Shown here: piece by piece, positions 27,691 through 46,844 of the stretch
Layout: each line of letters opens with the position of its first letter
How positions within the stretch are numbered: the first letter of the stretch is position 1
From: Somniosus microcephalus
Taxonomy: Eukaryota
Assembly: GCA_052327205.1 (NCBI GenBank)
Contig: CM126214.1
Span: 102,300,001 to 102,364,000, forward strand
Direction of reading: 5' to 3'
DNA length: 64,000 bases
The notes under the pieces: model-generated
What the model saw: only the letters and a program-made list of their open reading frames with translations
Told to the model about the DNA's origin: nothing
Databases searched by the model: none
Translations under genes and position numbers: made by a program

Positions 27691-27860
27691 AGTAGCAATT
27701 AACTTGTTATATTTCATATTAAAGATTAGTTCTTCATTAATTCTTTATTCCAAACAAAATCAGGCCGTTAACCCTGTTATTACTCTTTGCAGATAAATGG
27801 ACAGGAAAGCTGAAATCTCAATTGCTGCATGATCTGTGACAAGAGGGTTAAAATTCTAAT

Positions 27861-28812
27861 ATGATCAAACTTGGTGCAGTGAAATGGTACTTTATATTCA
27901 CTATTTTAATAGTTCTGGGCATACTTGTATACTTGAACAAAATTTCATATTACATTAAGGATCCTACTGTGCAAAATGGATTCCAGCATAATTTCAGCAT
28001 ATGCTGTAGTGCAATTTTAAACAGTGAAGAGAAAGCATGCCAGTTTGGAGATGTCTGCCAAAAGGAGAAGCCAGAAACATTCCACATTCAGGACCCAGTT
28101 AACTGCTCCAGAATCGTACTAGAACATCACTTCATAACAAGTTATCTGTCACAAGAAGAAGCCAGCTATCCCCTGGCTTACATTATCACTATCCACAAAG
28201 AGCTTGAACTGTTTGTAAAACTTCTGCGAGCAATTTATAGTCCACAGAATGTTTATTGCATCCATGTTGACCAAAAGTCACCAGAAGATTACAAGAGAAA
28301 GATAAAGAGCTTGGCTGACTGCTTTGATAACATCTTTATAGCTTCAAAATTGGAACATGTAGTTTATGGTGGATTCTCACGCCTGCAAGCAGACATAAAT
28401 TGTATGAAAGATCTTGTAAACTCAGCGGTCGACTGGAAGAACGTCATCAACCTCTGTGGACAAGATTTCCCAATTAAAACCAACAGGGAAATCATTTGGT
28501 ACTTAAAGAGCAAATGGAAGGGCAAGAATATCACACCAGGAATGCAGCAACCACCACATATGAAATACAGGACAGAGTACATTCACAAAGAGCAGATAGA
28601 TAATGGCAACGCCCACATTTATCGACTTAACAAGAAGAAAACTGCACCACCACTGGAGCTCACTATTTATTTCGGAAGTGCATACTACACACTCACTAGA
28701 AAATTTGTGCAATTTGTACTGGAAGATGCGCGTGCAAAAGCTCTTCTCGAGTGGTCCCGAGATACATACAGCCCCGATGAACATTACTGGGTGACACTGA
28801 ATCGCTTAAAGG
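27861..28812 (+). CDS. GCNT7: GCNT7-like core-2/I-branching beta-1,6-N-acetylglucosaminyltransferase (GT14), coding exon 1
   Basis: N-terminal TM anchor, then GT14 motifs YPLAYIITIHKE, LRAIYSPQNVYCIHVDQKS, RLQADINCMKDL, INLCGQDFPIKTN and WSRDTYSPDEHYWVTLNR. Phase-1 donor G|GTAAG after 28812; upstream acceptor ttgcag at 27791-27792. Confidence 0.92.
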
Positions 28813-32606: not shown

Positions 32607-33155
32607 ATTAAGATATGGATGCTAAGAATTGAAGGATTTTATGGAATAGGATTGTTCCTGAGCTGATGGGATCATGGAACTTGTCACTTCAAGGATGATA
32701 GATAATGGAAATGTTTTTCTTCATTTATCTTTGCTGGGCCAGGGAGAAACTTTCTTTGGAAGACTGACTAGGTTAGGTATAAGTCACAATGAGAGTGGAT
32801 CGCACATGGTTTGTGGAAGGAACCCAGTTGATGGGTTCAGTGGCCTTTCCCTATCCATGTTTACTCTTCATTCAGATCCATTGGCTGCTGTTGTCGATCC
32901 ACTCTCTGTTGATTTCAGTTATCCTCCAGTGACTTTTGCAGGACAGCTTACTTTTTGAATCCTTGCATCTTTGGAAAAAAGTTCTTCATTGCCTTTCGGG
33001 TATACCTGACCATCTTATAGAACAACTGCATCTGGCTTTATCGACACTGTGTTTGCTGCCAACATATGTTCTTTAAATAATCATCATGTTTTTAGGGCTT
33101 CTTGGGGTATATACTGTACAAAAGAAAACCGTCTTATATATTTCTTTCTTTCCAG

Positions 33156-33251
33156 ATGCACCTGGTACAACCCCAAATCTTACATGGGAAGGCAATATAC
33201 GGGCAGTAAAATGGGCACCCCATGTAGGACCATCATTTGATGGCTGTAAAG
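33156..33251 (+). CDS. GCNT7: GCNT7 coding exon 2 (DAPGTTPNLTWEGNIRAVKW...DGCK)
   Basis: Pyrimidine tract plus ccAG acceptor (33154-55) and G|GTAAG donor. The 96-bp phase 1-1 exon keeps frame. WEGNIRAVKW..DGCKG is GCNT7-like. Confidence 0.9.
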
Positions 33252-34755: not shown

Positions 34756-35054
34756 ACCTGGAATATGAAGTGCTCACAGGGTCCCTTGGACACTTTTTTA
34801 ATTCATTTGGTGTTGCTTTTATGTGGACACTCCCTGCCAGTCTTTTTAAAACATTAAAATTTTAACTGTTGGGAGAGGAACTCTGCACATGAGTGCAAGC
34901 TCACACTGTGCAAGGCTATCTCTTATGGAGGAGAACTGCAGATAGAAATAAGGTACTGCCTGGCTGTAAATAATGCTGGAGCAACTAGTCTCAGACCATC
35001 AGTTTTATTGTAGTGAATATCTGTACTGTAAAATAGGATGTCTTTATTTTTCAG

Positions 35055-35251
35055 GGCATTATATCAGAGATATCTGTGTGTATGGCCTCGGAGATCTAAA
35101 ATGGATCATTCAACAACCAGCCATGTTTGCCAATAAGTTTGAACTGACTGTGTGCCCTCCGACTGTGTGGTGTATGGAGCAATGGTACAGAGATCGGATA
35201 CTTAATCAAACTTCAGCAACTATACAGCCACACTGGTACCTCCAGGACTAA
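35055..35251 (+). CDS. GCNT7: GCNT7 coding exon 3 (GHYIRDICVYGLGDLKW...FANKFE...stop)
   Basis: tttttcAG acceptor (35053-54) and GT14 C-terminal motifs ICVYG.GDL and FANKF. Spliced CDS is 952+96+197=1245 nt, i.e. 414 aa plus stop. Confidence 0.9.
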
Positions 35252-35563
35252 GGCATTTTGATATGAAGATGAAGATTCAAACAAGGAGGAAAGTTGCTCC
35301 AAAAGCAACTAATTGAAATTAATCTCAGGGGCATTCTGAAACATATTCTGTATACACTGCCACAGTTTTCAAGTGCACATCCAGCTTCATCTTAGAAGGT
35401 AGCTGTTTCTGTTCACGGGTATCATGAAGATTAATGCAAATGTATAACTGGGTGAGTGACCAGTTAGCTCCTTATGATCCATGTAAATAGTACATGCCAT
35501 TTGGGACAATTTCTACACTTTTATTTAGGATGGCTCACATGCAAGCTGTAATTTTAATTTTTC

Positions 35564-39843: not shown

Positions 39844-40860
39844 TCTATATAAGACCTGTCTGTCTGTTCTCTATATGTTCGAAAGTTATAGAGCGTACCT
39901 ACACACGCGTCACGTCAAAAGAAAGCTTACGATTACGGACCGGTCACAGGCGTATTTACTTTTCCGTCAGACAAAAATCGTGCCCACGATATCCAAAAAA
40001 CGTTCAAAATTCCGCTCATTAAATGGGAAAAGTTCCGCTCATTTGCTCATTAGCATTGAGTGACGTGAAGGTTGACCAATCGTGCGGTCGAGCGACCTGA
40101 CAGTTGACCGACGGTTGACCAATTGCTGCGTCGCGGGGGCGGGTTCATTGTGCATGCGTGCGGGCGGGCCATCCTACAGTTGAGTGTTGAGTGACTTGAC
40201 GATTGACCAATCCTACGCTTCGGTGACCTTGCGGTCGACCAATCGGTGCGTGTGTGGGCGGGCCTTATCATTCTGAACCGAGGTGAGTGGCCGCCATCTT
40301 GATTCTTCACCATTTTTTTCCTCCACACTTTCTGTGTGTTAGGGAACTAAGGAAAATAACAATTTATTTGAGTTTTAAATTGTATTAAGCAACAGTAGGA
40401 AATGAAGTGATCCCCTGCCCTTCGCCCGGAGGCTCGCCTACCTTGACGGCCGTTTCGAGCGGCTGTGCCGGCGCCGGGCTAGACCGAGCAGCCCGGGAAG
40501 CCTGGGCCTTGAGTTGCGGGCAGTGCCGGGAGCCGCCGCGCACAAAACTTCCCCGCGGCGTCAACAGCCCCGCCCCAGAGCCCGACCCAAAGCCACCAGG
40601 TCACCGGCCGCGCCGGGAGCTGCCGCGCACAAAACCGCCCCACGGCGTCAACAGCCCTGCCCCAGAGCCCGACCCAAAGCCATCAGGACACCAGCCGCGG
40701 CGGGCCGTGCCAGGAGCTGCCGCGCACAAAACTTCCCCGCGACGTTAACAGCCCCACCCGAGAGCCCGACCCAAAGCCATCAGGTGAGCGGCCGCGGCGG
40801 CCCAGTCGCTCTCTCACACTCCCAACCACTCACACTCACACTCACACTCACAGTCTCTCT
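39844..40860 (+). mobile_element. Putative Helitron-like element 5' portion (CpG-rich, promoter-like, internal tandem repeats)
   Basis: Begins A|TCTATATAAG..CTGTCTGTCTGT with an abrupt rise in CpG. Three GC-rich repeats of about 87-100 bp at 40525-40800. No 3' hairpin/CTAG end visible. Confidence 0.35.
40056..40302 (+). promoter_or_regulatory. Promoter-like motif cluster
   Basis: Four GACCAAT boxes, three GGGCGG boxes, TGACGT, a donor AG|GTGAGT and a YY1-like GCCGCCATCTTG. Confidence 0.45.
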
Positions 40861-41380
40861 CTCTCTCTCTCGCTCCCAATCTCTCTCTCACGCTCCCAAT
40901 CTCTCTCTCTCTCGCTCTCTCCTTCCATCTCTCTCTCGCTCTCTCCTTCCATCTCTCTCTCGCTCTCTCCTTCCCTCTCTCTCTCGCTCTCTCCTTCCAT
41001 CTCTCTCTCGCTCTCTCCTTCCATCTCTCTCCTTCCATCTCTCTCTCGCTCTCTCCTTCCATCTCTCTCCTTCCATCTCTCTCTCGCTCTCTCCTTCCAT
41101 CTCTCTCCTTCCATCTCTCTCTCTCTCTCTCCTTCCATCTCTCTCTCGCTCTCTCCTTCCATCTCTCTCTCGCTCTCTCCTTCCATCTCTCTCTCGCTCT
41201 CTCCTTCCATCTCTCTCTCGCTCTCTCCTTCCATCTCTCTCTCCTTCCATCTCTCTCTCTCTCTCCTTCCATCTCTCTCTCTCTCTCCTTCCATCTCTCT
41301 CTCTCTCTCCTTCCATCTCTCTCTCTCTCTCCTTCCATCTCTCTCTCTCTCTCTCCTTCCATCTCTCTCTCTCTCCTTCC
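40812..41380. repeat. Compound (CT)n / CCTTCCAT polypyrimidine micro/minisatellite
   Basis: Units of about 24 bp (ctctctctcgctctctccttccat), preceded by (CACACT)n. Confidence 0.95.
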
Positions 41381-41609
41381 AATTCCAATTCCAATTCCAA
41401 TTAAAATGCTTTATTGGCATGAAAGTTTACAGAGAACCATATTGCCAAAGCTTACATAGCAAAAAGGTACAGTTTTCCAACATTCTGTAGGTGTCAATCG
41501 ATTTGACATTTGTTGGGTACATACAATATTACTTTTAAACAATATTAATTTTAAACAGTCTTTGTACTTCATTTGGTACGTTCAATATTAATTTTAAACA
41601 GTCTTAATT

Positions 41610-44600
41610 TTAAACAGTCCTCAGGTTGTGACATGTTGTTACATATTTGGCCCCAAGGTATGGTCTGTCTCCTTCTCCTAGGACTAATCTCAATTTTGAC
41701 AGATCATCCAATTCCTTGAAATCTGGGGTTGTTTGGCTTAGCTTGTTGAATAATATGTTTCTTGATGTGTTGAATTTTTCGCATTTTAGGAGGAAATGCA
41801 TTTCTGTTTCAACCTCGCCAGCCAGACATTGATCGCATATTCTATTCTCTCTAGGCTGCCAGGATTTCTTGTATCTGCCTTTTTCAATTTCCAGTTGGTG
41901 GTCGCTTAGTCTGTACCTGGTGAGGGTCTGTCTCTGTTTTGTGTCTCTGATGGTCGTGAGGTAGTCTGCCAGTTTATATTCTCTTTTTAGGGCCCGGTAA
42001 CATTCTAATCTGCTTTGGCTTTCGGTTATTTTGTTCCAATGTTCCAGGTAGGTTTCTTTGCATTTTTTAATGATTTGGTTCACTCGGATTGGTGTTTGGA
42101 CGGCTGTGTTGGTCTGGGGCTGGTCAGGGTCCGGCTGAGTACTTAGTTTCCGTAGCAGCTGACTCAGGGGACTCTTTTCTGGGTTTAGCTCTTGGGTCTG
42201 AAAGGCTTTGAAATGAAGGGTGTCTGGGGAGCTAGATTTGAGGTGATTTAGGAAGTTTAGTGCTCGTTTTTGGATGTTTATTATCAGTGGGTATCTGCCT
42301 AGTTCGGCTCTGCATGCATTTGTTGGCGTTTTCCTTTGGGTGCGAAGGATGCTTCGGCAGAATTCTGCATGTAGGGCTTCTATTGTATGTTTTTCCCATT
42401 TAGTGTAGCTTTGGTGATTTAGCGGGCCCCATACTTCACTACCGTACAGTGCAATGGGCAGGATTATGCTGTCAAATATTTTGAGCCAGATTTTGATTGG
42501 GATTTGGATGTTGTAGAATTTTCTTTTTATTGCATATAGGGCTCTTCGGGCTTTTTCTTTTAGTGCATTCACTGCTATGCTGAAGCTCCCTGATGCTGTA
42601 ATAGTTAGACCAAGGTAGGTGTAGCTCATAGTGTGTCCTATAGTGGTATCACTGAGGGTAAACTGGTATTTGTTTTCCTGACATCTGGGCCTTTTTTGAA
42701 AAATCATGATGTTGGTTTTCTTTAGATTTACTGTTAGAGCCCAATTTTGGCAGTATTTGTCGAGTAGGTCTAGTTGTTGCTGTAATCCCTGTTCTGTGGG
42801 AGACAGCAGAACCAGGTCGTCCGCATAGAACAGGGATTTCACTTCTCCATCTAGGAGACGGAGACCTGGTGACTCGCTTTGCTCCAGCATGTCTGCTAAT
42901 TCATTTATGTATATGTTGAACAGGGTCGGGCTCAAATTGCAGCCCTGCCGGACGCCTCTTCTCTGGGTGAAGAAATCGGTGCGTTTGTCTCCAATTTTGA
43001 CCCCGCATTTGTTTTTCAGATACATTGATTTAATAAGGTCATAGACTTTGCCCCCTATTCCACATTGAAGGAGTTTATAATAGAGCCCTTCGTGCCATAT
43101 AGAGTCAAAGGCTTTCTTGAAGTCGATGAAACAGGCGAATATTTTCCCATTTTTTGTTTGGTGTATATGTTTTTCAATGAGGGTGTGAAGGGTATAGATA
43201 TGGTCGGCGGTGCGGTGTTTTGGAAGAAAGCCTATTTGGTTTTTTCTGAGGATATTATGTTTGTTAAGAAAATCAAGTAATCTACTATTTAGAATACTGC
43301 AGAATAACTTCCCTAGACAACTGTTGACACAGATGCCGCGGTAGTTATTTGGGTCTGATTTGTTTCCGCTTTTATATATGGGGGAGATTAGTCCTTGGCA
43401 CCAGATATCGGGAAAACAGCCTGAACGTAATATGATGTTGAATAATTTGAGTACCGCACCCTGCATCTCCATATTGCTGAACTTGAGCATTTCATTTTTG
43501 ATGTTGTCTGGGCCACAGGCTTTCTTTAGGTGGAGAGATTTTGTTTTTGTGGCCATTTCTTTCCATGTGATTGGGGAGTCTAGAGGGTTTTGGTTGTCTT
43601 TGATTGTTGCTTCTAATGTGTGGAGTTTTTCTGTGACCTGATGTTGACTTGGGTTTGTTTCGTTTATTGGGATGTCTTTGTAGAGGTTTTCAAAATGTGT
43701 TCTCCAGATGTCGCCATCTTGGATTGGTAATGCTTGCAATTGTGTTGTACTCAGGTTATTCCACATTTCCCAGAATTGTTTTGGGTTGGTGGAGTTTTCA
43801 ATTTCTTCTAGTATTTTGTGGGTATAGTTTTGTGTTTTGTTCCTAATGGTGTGTTTATATCTTTTGAGGGTTTCATTGTATCTAGTACGTAGGTCCGGAT
43901 TGTTTGGTTGGCGATGCTTTTGGTTTGATATTTTTCTCAGGTCTTTTCTGGCATTTTTGCATTCGTGGTCAAACCATTTCTTATTTTTATTTTGTCTTTT
44001 GTGACTCTTCCTCTTCTGTTTCACGAGGTCGGCTTTTACAGCTGCCTCATGAAAGATCATATTTATATCCTCTATGGCCATGTTTACCCCATCTCTGGTG
44101 ATCTCATATAGATTTTCTTTAAATTTTGAAATTTTACTTGTGAGATCAGGTGAATTTAGTGCTGTGATGAATTTATCTCCACTGTCTGGGGCCCATCTGT
44201 ATGTCTGGTTTATTTTATGTAGCTTACTGGGTTCCTTTTTTGTGTCTGTAGTTTGGGCAGAAAGTTTAAGGTACACATTTATTTGGTTATGGTCTGAGAG
44301 GGGGGATTGCTGCCTGACAGTGAATGCGTTGATATCGCAGGGGTCCAGGTCAGTGATTGTATAATCCACCACACTAGACCCAAGAGTTGAGGAATATGTG
44401 AGTCTCCCTAAGGAGTCCCCTCTGAACCTACCGTTAACTATGTACAGGCCTAAGGCTCAGCAGAGTTGCACTACCTCCCTACCGCTTTTATTTATTTCAC
44501 AATCGAGGTTGTTTCGGTTTGCGATGGCTGGTGTGACATATAGAGGGGTCTGGCCAAACACATGGTTGTTGCCCTGTGGGTCTATGAAGTCAGGTTCACA

Positions 44601-45089
44601 TCCTGTCCTTGCATTTAGGTCCCCACATAGTAGCACCTTTCCTTGGGCCTGGAAATGGCTGATTTCCATGTGGAGAGTGTCAAATATCTCCTCTTCAAAA
44701 TATGGCGATTCTATTGGAGGTATGTAGATCGCACATAAGTAAACATCGTTTTTTTCTATTCCTATATTTTTATCTAATTTTAGCCATACGTGTGATTTTC
44801 CCTGTTTTATCGGTGAGATGTGTTTGTTCAGTTCTCCTTTATACCACACCAGGATTCCCCCGGAGGTTCTGCCCTTGCGTGTCTTAATGTTCTTTACTGA
44901 AGGCACAATAATTTCATGGTACATTGGGGGACAGTGGGTCGGCATGTCCTTTTGGCACCATGTTTCTGTTAACACAATTATATCAATGTCTTTTATAGCT
45001 TTTAGGAATTCAGGGTCTGTACTCTTCATCCCAAAAGTTGAGGAGCGGAGGCCCTGGATATTCCAGCAGCTTATGTGGAAAGAACGCAT
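41610..45089 (-). pseudogene. LINE ORF2 (APE endonuclease + reverse transcriptase + CCHC zinc motif) with one in-frame TGA at 44457-44459
   Basis: Motifs WNIQGL, LTETW, GDLNAR, SDH, PNNYRGI, DFKKAFDS, GVRQGCNLSPTLF, YADDL and CDQC..E..HF..C. The two track ORFs are in the same frame, joined by 84 stop-free nt (ALGLYIVNGRFRGDSLGRLTY). Confidence 0.9.
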
Positions 45090-45270
45090 TTATATAGTTC
45101 AATAAAACGAAATAAAATGGACCTATTTTGTGGGATGAGTGTGGAAACACTATTTTCTATAATGCTAAATGATGATTTAGTATAAATTTCATGAGGCATG
45201 CACATATATCTATCTAATAGTAGTAATAATACTGATAAGATAACAATAATGATAATGATAAATAACAATA

Positions 45271-46344
45271 TTAATAATTTCTCCGGCTTTCTATCAGGCT
45301 GTTCAGCATCGTCATGATCTTTCTCAGTTCTTGGTCTACAGTCTGTGGTCTAGAGGGGGGTCTTGGGTTCTGTTGTTGGTTTTGTAAAGGGGGGTGGGGG
45401 ACATTGGTGGTCCTGTTTGGGTTACGGCTCCCAATGGTAGAGGGGGTGGGAGGGCTGCGTCTTTTGGCAGTGTTTATGAGGTTTTTTGCAAAGACCCACA
45501 TCCGCTGTTTGAGTAGATGTATTTCGTCATAGAGGTCCCTTGTGTTGATGTTTGGATGATGGGCCAGGTAGACGTTGGGGAAGACAGAACATCTCGTGTC
45601 GATCTCCCTGTTGGTGTTGTGGATTATATAGGCTGGGGTGTCCTTTCTGGGCAGTAGTGTGGAGATCACGATCCGCGCCTCGGGGAATTCCTTGCTGGCC
45701 TTTTCCGCCATCCTGCTCACCGCCCTAGCAGTGCCTTCCCGTAGGGTGCGTAGGTCGTTTGTGCCTGTGTGGATCACAAGCCATTTGGGGCTTCCAAGGG
45801 ATTCTTTGTTCAGGATCTTCATTGCATGTTCTGTGTTGCTGCACCATTTTTTCAGGACTTGATGACCTGGGAACAGCCTCTGGGGGTCCAGAAACTTTCC
45901 GTTGGAGTCGGTCAGCAGGACCGCCTGAGGGGCTGGTTTTTCAGACTGGGTAGCAGTAGTCTGGGCAGGACTCGACTGATGGCTGGTTGTTGGCTGGGTT
46001 TCTGGGATATGTTGTGTGGCAGGAGCGGGGTTTGAGGCTTTCGGTGTGTCCTCGTGTGGGGGGGCATCTGACGGGTTCTGCGTCCCTGTGTGTGAGGACT
46101 GGGTAGCGGTAGTCTGGGCAGGACTCGACTGAGGGCTGGTTGTTGGCTGGGTTTCTGTGGTGAGCTGTGTGGCAGGAGCGGGGTTTGTGGCTTTCGGTGT
46201 GTCCTCGTGTGGGGTGGCATCCGACGGGTTCTGTGTCCTTGTGTGTGTTGTTTTTTGGACCTTAAGAGGTTTGTGTTGCCTGCTGAGCCTTTCTACGGCC
46301 TCCGTCATTTTGTTTAGTTGGGTATGGAGTTCTTGGATCTTATT
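45271..46344 (-). CDS. LINE ORF1: coiled coil + 2x51-aa Pro/Thr repeat + SGNH esterase domain (open into the gap)
   Basis: SGNH blocks LLTDSN, IHTGTND and DEIHL. 153-bp direct repeat at about 45944/46097. Frame stays open to 46344 (NKIQELHTQLNKM). Confidence 0.8.
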   Translation of the reverse strand, partial: NKIQELHTQLNKMTEAVERLSRQHKPLKVQKTTHTRTQNPSDATPHEDTPKATNPAPATQLTTETQPTTSPQSSPAQTTATQSSHTGTQNPSDAPPHEDTPKASNPAPATQHIPETQPTTSHQSSPAQTTATQSEKPAPQAVLLTDSNGKFLDPQRLFPGHQVLKKWCSNTEHAMKILNKESLGSPKWLVIHTGTNDLRTLREGTARAVSRMAEKASKEFPEARIVISTLLPRKDTPAYIIHNTNREIDTRCSVFPNVYLAHHPNINTRDLYDEIHLLKQRMWVFAKNLINTAKRRSPPTPSTIGSRNPNRTTNVPHPPLQNQQQNPRPPSRPQTVDQELRKIMTMLNSLIESRRNY

Positions 46345-46844
46345 NNNNNNNNNNNNNNNNNNNNNNNNNNNNNNNNNNNNNNNNNNNNNNNNNNNNNNNN
46401 NNNNNNNNNNNNNNNNNNNNNNNNNNNNNNNNNNNNNNNNNNNNNNNNNNNNNNNNNNNNNNNNNNNNNNNNNNNNNNNNNNNNNNNNNNNNNNNNNNNN
46501 NNNNNNNNNNNNNNNNNNNNNNNNNNNNNNNNNNNNNNNNNNNNNNNNNNNNNNNNNNNNNNNNNNNNNNNNNNNNNNNNNNNNNNNNNNNNNNNNNNNN
46601 NNNNNNNNNNNNNNNNNNNNNNNNNNNNNNNNNNNNNNNNNNNNNNNNNNNNNNNNNNNNNNNNNNNNNNNNNNNNNNNNNNNNNNNNNNNNNNNNNNNN
46701 NNNNNNNNNNNNNNNNNNNNNNNNNNNNNNNNNNNNNNNNNNNNNNNNNNNNNNNNNNNNNNNNNNNNNNNNNNNNNNNNNNNNNNNNNNNNNNNNNNNN
46801 NNNNNNNNNNNNNNNNNNNNNNNNNNNNNNNNNNNNNNNNNNNN
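46345..46844. other. Assembly gap (500 N)
   Basis: Run of N. Different, truncated repeats flank the two sides. Confidence 1.

What the first reader, a model, noticed from the sequence alone, without database searches (positions are those of the whole stretch)
41377..46344. Near-intact esterase-bearing RTE-X-like LINE, one base from intact; horizontal-transfer candidate
Seen: ORF2 (1159 codons) has no frameshift and one in-frame TGA (44457-44459), plausibly a CGA-to-TGA change. ORF1 keeps Ser/GxND/DxxH SGNH motifs behind a coiled coil and a 51-aa duplication. All other LINEs in the window are truncated or decayed. Known: esterase ORF1s occur in L2/CR1/RTE-X clades (e.g. ZfL2-1). Inference: this is a recently active family. 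Its 3' end (ATGCCAATAAAGC..(AATTGG)n-GA repeats) reminds me of teleost elements, which suggests transfer into sharks.
Basis: partly seen in the sequence, partly recalled or inferred. Interest (0 to 1): 0.7.

Follow-up and report, generated by a model that had tools for sequence, protein, structure and literature searches.

The report
GA-repeat-targeting shark LINE, teleost-derived
This is one broken copy of a young, abundant shark jumping-gene family whose copies sit mostly inside GA-rich repeats, always facing the same way, and whose lineage likely crossed into sharks from bony fish long ago rather than recently.

Summary
The element is real: an esterase-ORF1 LINE on the minus strand. Its TGA is private to this copy: 31 of 31 other ungapped copies read CGA. 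"One base from intact" is unproven, because a 500-N gap hides about 1.7 kb of 5' end, including ORF1 residues 1-228. The family is young and large: over 1,000 candidate hits, top copies 0.07% from majority, 25 of 39 with both ORFs open. Its ORF2 is already in nr as a Somniosus reverse transcriptase (98%). New here: (1) the GA repeats are the target, not the tail: 54 of 73 3' junctions enter GA arrays, none TC, against 2.8% background; (2) ORF1 trees place the shark family next to an icefish element inside a teleost-shaped tree (AU p 0.004-0.016), so transfer from ray-finned fish is likely but old (73-76% ORF2 identity; dS 0.20 between sister families); (3) ORF1 carries an N-terminal domain weakly resembling the TBP-like domain of RNase HIII. 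RTE-X membership is plausible but untested against Repbase. Other sharks and dS to teleosts could not be checked.

The parts
40856..41375 (-). GA-rich minisatellite (TC-rich on +) into which the element inserted; host target, not element tail
   Evidence: TRF period 24, 23.6 copies; same arrangement at 31 of 36 family-A junctions, with GA also on the 5' side in 29 of those 31
41377..41402 (-). 3' tail (AATTGG)n
   Evidence: TRF period 6, 4.3 copies; same tail in other copies
41408..41451 (-). Predicted 3' stem-loop GCTTTGGCAA...TGCCAATAAAGC, likely the RT recognition signal
   Evidence: Outer stem kept in families A, B and C, inner stem differs in C (no shuffle control run); same motif in two stray contigs L144 and L148
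41610..45089 (-). ORF2, 1159 codons: APE endonuclease, RT, C-terminal CCHC-type motif; one premature stop
41781..41837 (-). C-x2-C...E-x3-H-F-x3-C motif (residues 1085-1103)
   Evidence: read from the translation; present in 11 of 13 rows compared, the other two being C-terminally short
42600..43361 (-). RT domain (residues 577-830, YADD)
   Evidence: PF00078 E 5.8e-40 on intact copy L040
44457..44459 (-). Premature TGA, private CpG transition from CGA (Arg211)
45271..46344 (-). Visible part of ORF1 (residues 229-585 of 585)
45466..45930 (-). SGNH esterase domain (residues about 367-521)
   Evidence: invariant catalytic residues; Foldseek E 1.4e-7 to PAF-AH; family profile hits ZfL2-1 esterase 4c1b at E 0.0015
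45944..46247 (-). 153-bp (51-aa) tandem duplication in the disordered linker of ORF1
   Evidence: pLDDT under 50 over most of 266-358 (collected); a single unit by eye in family-B copy L100
46345..46844 (.). Assembly gap (500 N) hiding the 5' UTR and ORF1 residues 1-228, if this copy has them

Best explanation
The window holds a copy, inactivated by a private stop codon, of a young and abundant esterase-bearing LINE family that sits preferentially and in one orientation inside GA-rich minisatellites, and whose lineage likely entered sharks from ray-finned fish in an old horizontal transfer. Shown: anatomy, intact sister copies, low divergence, oriented GA placement inside pre-existing arrays, no target-site duplication at 3 of 3 testable sites, transcription in a coded species. 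Inferred mechanism: ORF2p binds its own RNA at the 3' stem-loop, the endonuclease nicks the TC-rich strand, the freed end pairs with the GA at the end of the tail repeat (GGA or TGA) and primes reverse transcription. The GA tracts in the 5' UTR would let the 5' end join by microhomology, and host repair would leave small target deletions. ORF1p would multimerise through its coiled coil and bind membranes through the esterase, as shown for ZfL2-1. Targeting repeats would spare genes and let copies pile up in the same arrays.
For: Copy number and youth: 1033 and 1177 first-look candidates, 40 scored each; mean 2.6 differences from majority in 3480 bp over 32 copies; 29 of 39 ORF2 open and 25 of 39 with both ORFs. 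Selection on the lineage: dN/dS 0.14-0.16 between A, A2 and B. Targeting: GA-rich 3' flank in 31 of 36 A, 16 of 19 B and 7 of 18 C junctions, TC-rich in 0 of 73, background 225 of 7920 windows, 198 of them from one region; 24 of 31 share a locus-specific unit on both sides; 14 extra 3' ends in 11 of 39 loci, all on the same strand, and 0 in 200 kb of arbitrarily chosen regions; first flank base A in 30 of 36. Transfer: the named-only ORF1 tree is (eel, ((Prochilodus, Brachyhypopomus), (icefish Pseudochaenichthys, shark A+B))) with 95/91, 100/98 and 99/96 support; holding the teleosts together without the shark is rejected at p-AU 0.012 and 0.016, and holding shark plus icefish outside at 0.004; ORF2 also nests A+B among teleost rows (97 and 96 SH-aLRT); all 33 species-named ORF1 hits of 96 are ray-finned fishes.
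Against: The copies were the best-scoring hits, so youth and intactness are overstated for the family as a whole. Age in years is loose: at 7e-10 per generation (epaulette shark, PMC10587355, abstract) 0.07% would be about a million generations, and 10 of 55 singleton changes are CpG transitions, so some genomic ageing has occurred; present-day activity is not shown. Transfer: no chondrichthyan genome other than G000 could be searched. The closest ORF2s (P0071, P0064) and ORF1 P0373 are unnamed and could be sharks. The ORF1 alignment has only 271 columns and the AU groups were named after seeing the tree. The ORF2 AU test was marginal (p 0.045). The shark ORF1 branch is long (0.44 against 0.18 for the icefish). 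The link between the icefish ORF1 and the unnamed ORF2 sisters is by tree congruence only. Sturgeon, Labeo and Triplophysa joined the clade but not. No dS to a teleost copy could be computed. Family C targets GA less strictly (7 of 18). The nicking and priming steps are untested.
Confidence: 0.68

Rival explanations
1. Vertical descent: several paralogous lineages of this LINE predate the shark/bony-fish split, sharks kept two (A/B and C), and slow shark evolution plus patchy loss and annotation make them look teleost-like.
For: Two shark lineages each sit at a similar 60-65% from named otophysan or other teleost relatives. Deep paralogy is evident: salmonid ORF1s group with an eel and not with the icefish. 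Sharks evolve slowly (PMC10587355, abstract and passages). Transposon proteins are annotated erratically, so the lack of named shark hits is weak.
Against: It needs the teleost-shaped branching around the shark (eel, otophysans, percomorph) to be coincidence, it is rejected by AU tests at 0.004-0.016, and it needs 73-76% full-length ORF2 identity across the gnathostome split if P0071/P0064 are teleost. Chondrichthyan CR1s form their own clade (PMC13343379, passages), which this element does not.
Confidence: 0.2
2. Transfer happened but not simply teleost-to-shark: shark and icefish each received the element from a third host, or it moved more than once in either direction.
For: The sister clade is mostly unnamed. 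Gymnothorax grouping with Epinephelus points to transfers among teleosts in this group. Near-identical DNA is held under 8 coded organism labels.
Against: Placing shark plus icefish outside the otophysan-eel group is rejected (p-AU 0.004), which favours a ray-finned origin of the shared ancestor.
Confidence: 0.1
3. The GA association comes from survival or from array growth after insertion, not from targeting: copies outside repeats are purged, or the insertion seeds the array.
For: 5 of 36 family-A and 11 of 18 family-C junctions are outside GA arrays. Some array units contain ATTGG like the tail. Only long, young copies were sampled for A.
Against: Selection would not give 54 GA against 0 TC orientations. 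The same locus-specific unit flanks both ends in 24 of 31 loci, which means the array was there first. 5'-truncated B and C copies show the bias too.
Confidence: 0.08

Closest known systems
nr WPH61294.1 / WPH61295.1, reverse transcriptase [Somniosus microcephalus] (P0063, P0002)
   Same: Same family: 1159 aa, 98.7% and 98.4% identical to ORF2.
   Different: A slightly diverged subfamily (18 substitutions to P0002); the record gives no clade, target or origin.
RTEX (RTE-X) clade of non-LTR retrotransposons
   Same: Two ORFs, SGNH esterase behind a coiled coil in ORF1 (PMC3905857, passages and section 13; PMC5408684, passages), APE plus RT in ORF2, short-repeat tail. The C-terminal CCHC-type motif as an RTEX trait is recalled, not from a call.
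   Different: Placement against Repbase or Dfam references not tested. Oriented GA targeting and an N-terminal folded ORF1 domain were not seen described for RTEX in the papers searched.
ZfL2-1 (L2/CR1 group) ORF1p esterase, PDB 4C1B
   Same: Coiled coil plus SGNH domain with the Ser-Asp-His triad and oxyanion Asn; family profile hits 4c1b at E 0.0015.
   Different: The RT falls outside this genome's CR1-like RTs. ORF1 is 585 aa with an extra 130-aa N-terminal alpha/beta domain; the block-II Gly of SGNH was not among the invariant columns.
Microsatellite-targeting non-LTR elements (Tx1 and R1 clades; Togen, HERO)
   Same: Insertion into repetitive 'safe' targets.
   Different: PMC4640811 (passages) assigns most target-specific families to RLE clades, Tx1 and R1. 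This family is in none of these by anatomy, its preference is loose (39-86%), and it shows no target-site duplication at 3 of 3 testable sites.
Horizontal transfer of TEs among vertebrates (PMC7070016)
   Same: Transfers involving ray-finned fishes are common: at least 975 events in 307 genomes (listing and passages).
   Different: The words shark, cartilaginous and Chondrichthyes do not occur in that main text (supplements not read). The case here rests on protein trees, not on the dS criterion.

Membership tests
RTEX clade | RT groups with Repbase RTEX references | not testable with these tools
   No reference set is held. A rough tree puts it outside 9 CR1-like RTs and one L1/Tx1-like RT of this genome (my labels), with the deep nodes unresolved.
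RTEX clade | ORF1 with SGNH esterase preceded by a coiled coil | tested here: met
   the feature is shared with CR1/L2 and Penelope elements, so it is not sufficient
RTEX clade | ORF2 with APE endonuclease and RT | tested here: met
   PF03372 and PF00078; WNIQG, GDLNAR, SDH and YADD motifs
RTEX clade | C-terminal CCHC-type motif (recalled trait) | tested here: met
   CDQC...ETEMHFLLKC at residues 1085-1103
CR1/L2 (ZfL2-like) | RT groups with CR1-group RTs | tested here: inconclusive
   Separate from this genome's CR1-like RTs at about 25% identity; no L2 or ZfL2-1 RT was available
Sequence-specific Tx1/R1-type elements | Insertion at one defined site of a repeat | tested here: not met
   Arrays differ in unit from locus to locus and 5 of 36 family-A sites are non-GA: a preference, not site specificity
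Horizontally transferred TE | Tree incongruent with host tree | tested here: met
Horizontally transferred TE | dS lower than host orthologues | not testable with these tools
   No teleost coding DNA was recovered
Horizontally transferred TE | Patchy distribution in the recipient clade | tested here: inconclusive
   No chondrichthyan but Somniosus among species-named hits (9 of 61, 4 of 120 listed of 1417, 33 of 96); most hits are unnamed
TBP-like domain (RNase HIII N-domain, PF11858; RnlA N-domain, PF15935) | Significant profile or fold match | tested here: inconclusive
   PF11858 in 17 of 46 members at E <= 0.01, best 3e-4, below cut-off and over about 20 residues; Z 5.5, rmsd 2.2 over 66 residues to 3vn5, tied with KA1 and helix-grip folds at Z 5-6.4; no Foldseek hit at E <= 0.001; Atlas 0.87 to an RnlA-type cluster, lead only

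The most novel reading that the evidence does not exclude
An esterase-bearing LINE lineage has crossed from ray-finned fish into one shark lineage twice (families A/B and C; their monophyly is rejected at p-AU 3e-12), homes to GA arrays by pairing its tail with the nicked TC strand, uses a TBP-like ORF1 domain to hold the RNA or RNA/DNA hybrid, and is still jumping in the germ line of a very long-lived shark. That would add a repeat-targeting APE lineage outside Tx1 and R1, supply the structured nucleic-acid-binding domain that esterase ORF1s were reported to lack, and link membrane-binding ORF1s to transfer between hosts.
Probability: 0.2. Interest if true: 0.72.

Novelty: new variant of a known kind. 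Interest (0 to 1): 0.5.

Why it matters
A near-intact LINE copy is ordinary. What matters is the family. It gives a testable case of fish-to-shark LINE transfer, a direction little covered in the surveys read. It shows a strand-specific repeat preference in a LINE group not listed among target-specific ones. It offers at least 25 naturally intact copies for a retrotransposition assay of the esterase's role, which is still open. Because retrotransposon expansion has been proposed to interact with DNA-repair evolution in Somniosus (bioRxiv 10.1101/2024.09.09.611499, passages), a young, transcribed family with a safe-harbour bias is a concrete candidate for how such a genome tolerates its load.

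Tried and rejected
Searching for teleost DNA to compute dS: metagenome scan gave 1 unrelated locus at 32%; viral contigs gave nothing; prokaryote genomes gave 10 pattern matches, of which I read 2 short stray contigs holding only the 3' end; the other 8 were not examined. Contigs X11 and X12 hold pieces at about 99.6% but low depth; their host is unknown. The first ORF2 AU test grouped salmonids with otophysans; the ORF1 tree later showed salmonids to be a different paralogue, so that test (p 0.045) is not the right contrast. AU tests include unnamed rows and those include Labeo and Triplophysa, whose place is unstable; I rely. The careful ORF2 tree did not finish; quick trees are used. The idea that the LINE lies in an intron of the neighbouring glycosyltransferase gene was rejected: the last coding exon motifs are near 35,100. 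A target-site duplication was sought at 4 non-repeat sites: 3 had empty-site paralogues and showed deletions of 12 and 1 bases and a near-flush join with extra bases; L040 had none; L071 was not tested. Foldseek and VIA found no clear fold for the ORF1 N-domain. Paper searches for prior description; none listed a paper on this family, its target or its transfer, but Repbase Reports and subscription journals are not in the library. Read only as passages with nothing on the family: PMC5753468, PMC3747384, PMC9004415, PMC12127037, PMC11203168, PMC3597702 (no mention of transposons), PMC12527291 (an RTE-X element is annotated in icefishes). No supplements were opened; those of PMC3905857 and PMC7070016 may bear on RTEX ORF1 architecture and on shark transfers. 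Earlier scan notes: none by sequence or words; 8 of 22 shown by genome concern other LINEs.
Full report
Observation. The element lies on the minus strand at 41377-46344. ORF2 (41610-45089) is 1159 codons with one TGA at 44457-44459 and carries APE and RT domains. ORF1 is visible for 357 residues, then a 500-N gap begins at 46345. The 153-bp duplication and the (AATTGG)n tail are as described. Other RT-bearing frames in the window are 209-350 aa.

The family. Two DNA searches of G000 gave 1033 and 1177 candidates, of which 40 each were scored. I fetched 39 of the 39 non-self copies. They show an element of about 6.65-6.8 kb with two alternative 5' heads, a GC- and GA-rich 5' UTR, a 585-aa ORF1 and a 1159-aa ORF2. 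ORF2 is open in 29 of 39 and both ORFs in 25 of 39. Over 32 ungapped ORF2 sequences the mean distance to the majority is 0.074%, one copy equals it, and codon 211 is CGA in all 31 others. The stop is a CpG transition private to this copy. These are the best-scoring copies, so the figures describe the youngest layer. None of 20 arbitrarily chosen 10-kb regions held families A, B or C (one short 5' hit of the C locus is to another repeat).

Relatives in the same genome. Subfamily A2 is at dS 0.06, family B at dS 0.20 (92.7% ORF2 identity) and family C at saturated dS (54.6%); dN/dS is 0.12-0.16 throughout. B and C are also young, with 98-99% identical copies and 2022 and 1663 candidates, 40 scored each. 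So the A/B lineage has lived in this genome long enough to diversify under purifying selection.

Host and expression. nr holds two Somniosus microcephalus reverse transcriptases at 98.4-98.7% identity, so the host is inferred to be a sleeper shark or near relative. Two RNA runs of coded organism B gave 25,901 of 16.65 million and 26,377 of 14.40 million reads on the element at 85% likeness, across all 30 bins, mostly in the orientation expected for sense RNA if the libraries are stranded. These reads mix subfamilies and may include read-through from host transcripts.

Target preference. Scoring 100 bases after the tail, GA-rich flanks follow 31 of 36 A, 16 of 19 B and 7 of 18 C junctions; TC-rich flanks follow 0 of 73. 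Junctions were parsed for 36 of 39, 19 of 20 and 18 of 20 loci. Background is 225 of 7920 windows, 198 from a single region. Of the 31 A loci, 29 are GA-rich on the 5' side too and 24 share a locus-specific unit on both sides, so the arrays came first. Extra copies stack in the same arrays in the same orientation: 14 against 0. The base after the tail is A in 30 of 36, continuing the tail repeat, which fits GA microhomology. Three testable non-repeat sites show no duplication. A 3' stem-loop is predicted in A, B and C. The priming model in Best explanation is inference from these patterns and from general knowledge of target-primed reverse transcription.

Origin. Species-named relatives other than Somniosus are ray-finned fishes at 52-69% for ORF2, with unnamed proteins at 72-75%. 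In ORF2 trees A+B join two unnamed proteins and then otocephalan elements; C falls in a separate teleost-rich clade. The ORF1 search gave 96 hits, 33 with species names, all ray-finned fishes, two of them sturgeon records flagged as possible contamination; the best named hit is the icefish Pseudochaenichthys georgianus (taxonomy). Trees on the N-domain plus esterase put A+B with the icefish group (97/99; 99/96 with named rows only), then two otophysans, then an eel, which is the teleost order of branching as I recall it. I used 91 rows, 27 of them and 19, chosen by hand to span the clades. Constraints that keep the shark outside are rejected at p-AU 0.012, 0.016 and 0.004, and monophyly of A, B and C at 3e-12. 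Against this: short alignment, post hoc groups, unnamed sisters, deep paralogy, no dS and no other shark genome. I put transfer of the A/B lineage from ray-finned fish at about 0.7-0.75, and it predates the A/B split. C is a second candidate with an unresolved position.

ORF1 structure. AlphaFold2 on a 46-row alignment gives an N-terminal alpha/beta domain (about 14-144), a long helix (173-265), a disordered linker with the duplication, an SGNH domain and a C-terminal helix. The SGNH fold is clear. The N-domain folds confidently alone (pLDDT 87.7) and draws several weak, sub-threshold leads to TBP-like domains of RNase HIII and RnlA. PMC3905857 (section 13) states that esterase ORF1s in Repbase had no known structured RNA-binding domain, so this lead is worth testing, but it is not established. 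The domain is not visible in the window copy.

Verdict. A real but individually unremarkable dead copy of an active-looking family. RTE-X-like by anatomy, membership untested. The worthwhile results are the oriented GA-array preference (strong), an old fish-to-shark transfer (likely) and the ORF1 N-domain (lead). Interest 0.5.

Noticed in passing
window 27852-28811, about 33150-33240 and about 35040-35300 (+): Three-exon Core-2/I-branching glycosyltransferase gene (GCNT-like): PF02485 E 4e-50 for exon 1 with a GT donor near 28812, and downstream exon motifs near 33200 and 35075-35130. The LINE lies about 6 kb past the last coding exon, antisense.
   Followed up: partly
window 40525-40800: GC-rich 87-97-bp tandem repeat directly beside the GA array; resembles the repeat-rich 5' UTR style of a LINE head but was not identified.
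   Followed up: no
L107, L121, L119 (family C, G000): A second young esterase LINE family, 55% identical in ORF2, with intact ORF2 copies; it sits among cyprinid, characiform and percomorph elements and may be an independent transfer.
   Followed up: partly
L048, L053, L071 versus L058, L059 and others: Family A has two different 5' heads on the same body, suggesting promoter replacement; the 5' UTR also holds about 100-bp GC-rich monomer repeats.
   Followed up: no
L028-L030, L042, L047, L055, L063, L065: Tandem or nested copies and apparent A/A2 chimeras (A body with the GAACT tail in L047 and L055), pointing to recombination or template switching between subfamilies.
   Followed up: no
window 44315-46269 and 43025-43639: RNA reads in both runs join across these stretches (27 and 44 reads; 10 and 14 reads), non-canonical ends; may be internally deleted non-autonomous copies.
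   Followed up: no
L144 (1-507) and L148 (1-323): Short contigs in two bacterial assemblies carry this LINE group's 3' end, one followed by GA-rich sequence; likely animal contamination of those assemblies.
   Followed up: partly
P0441 with P0392, P0431: A moray eel ORF1 nests among grouper ORF1s at short distance in the fast tree, a possible transfer between teleosts.
   Followed up: no
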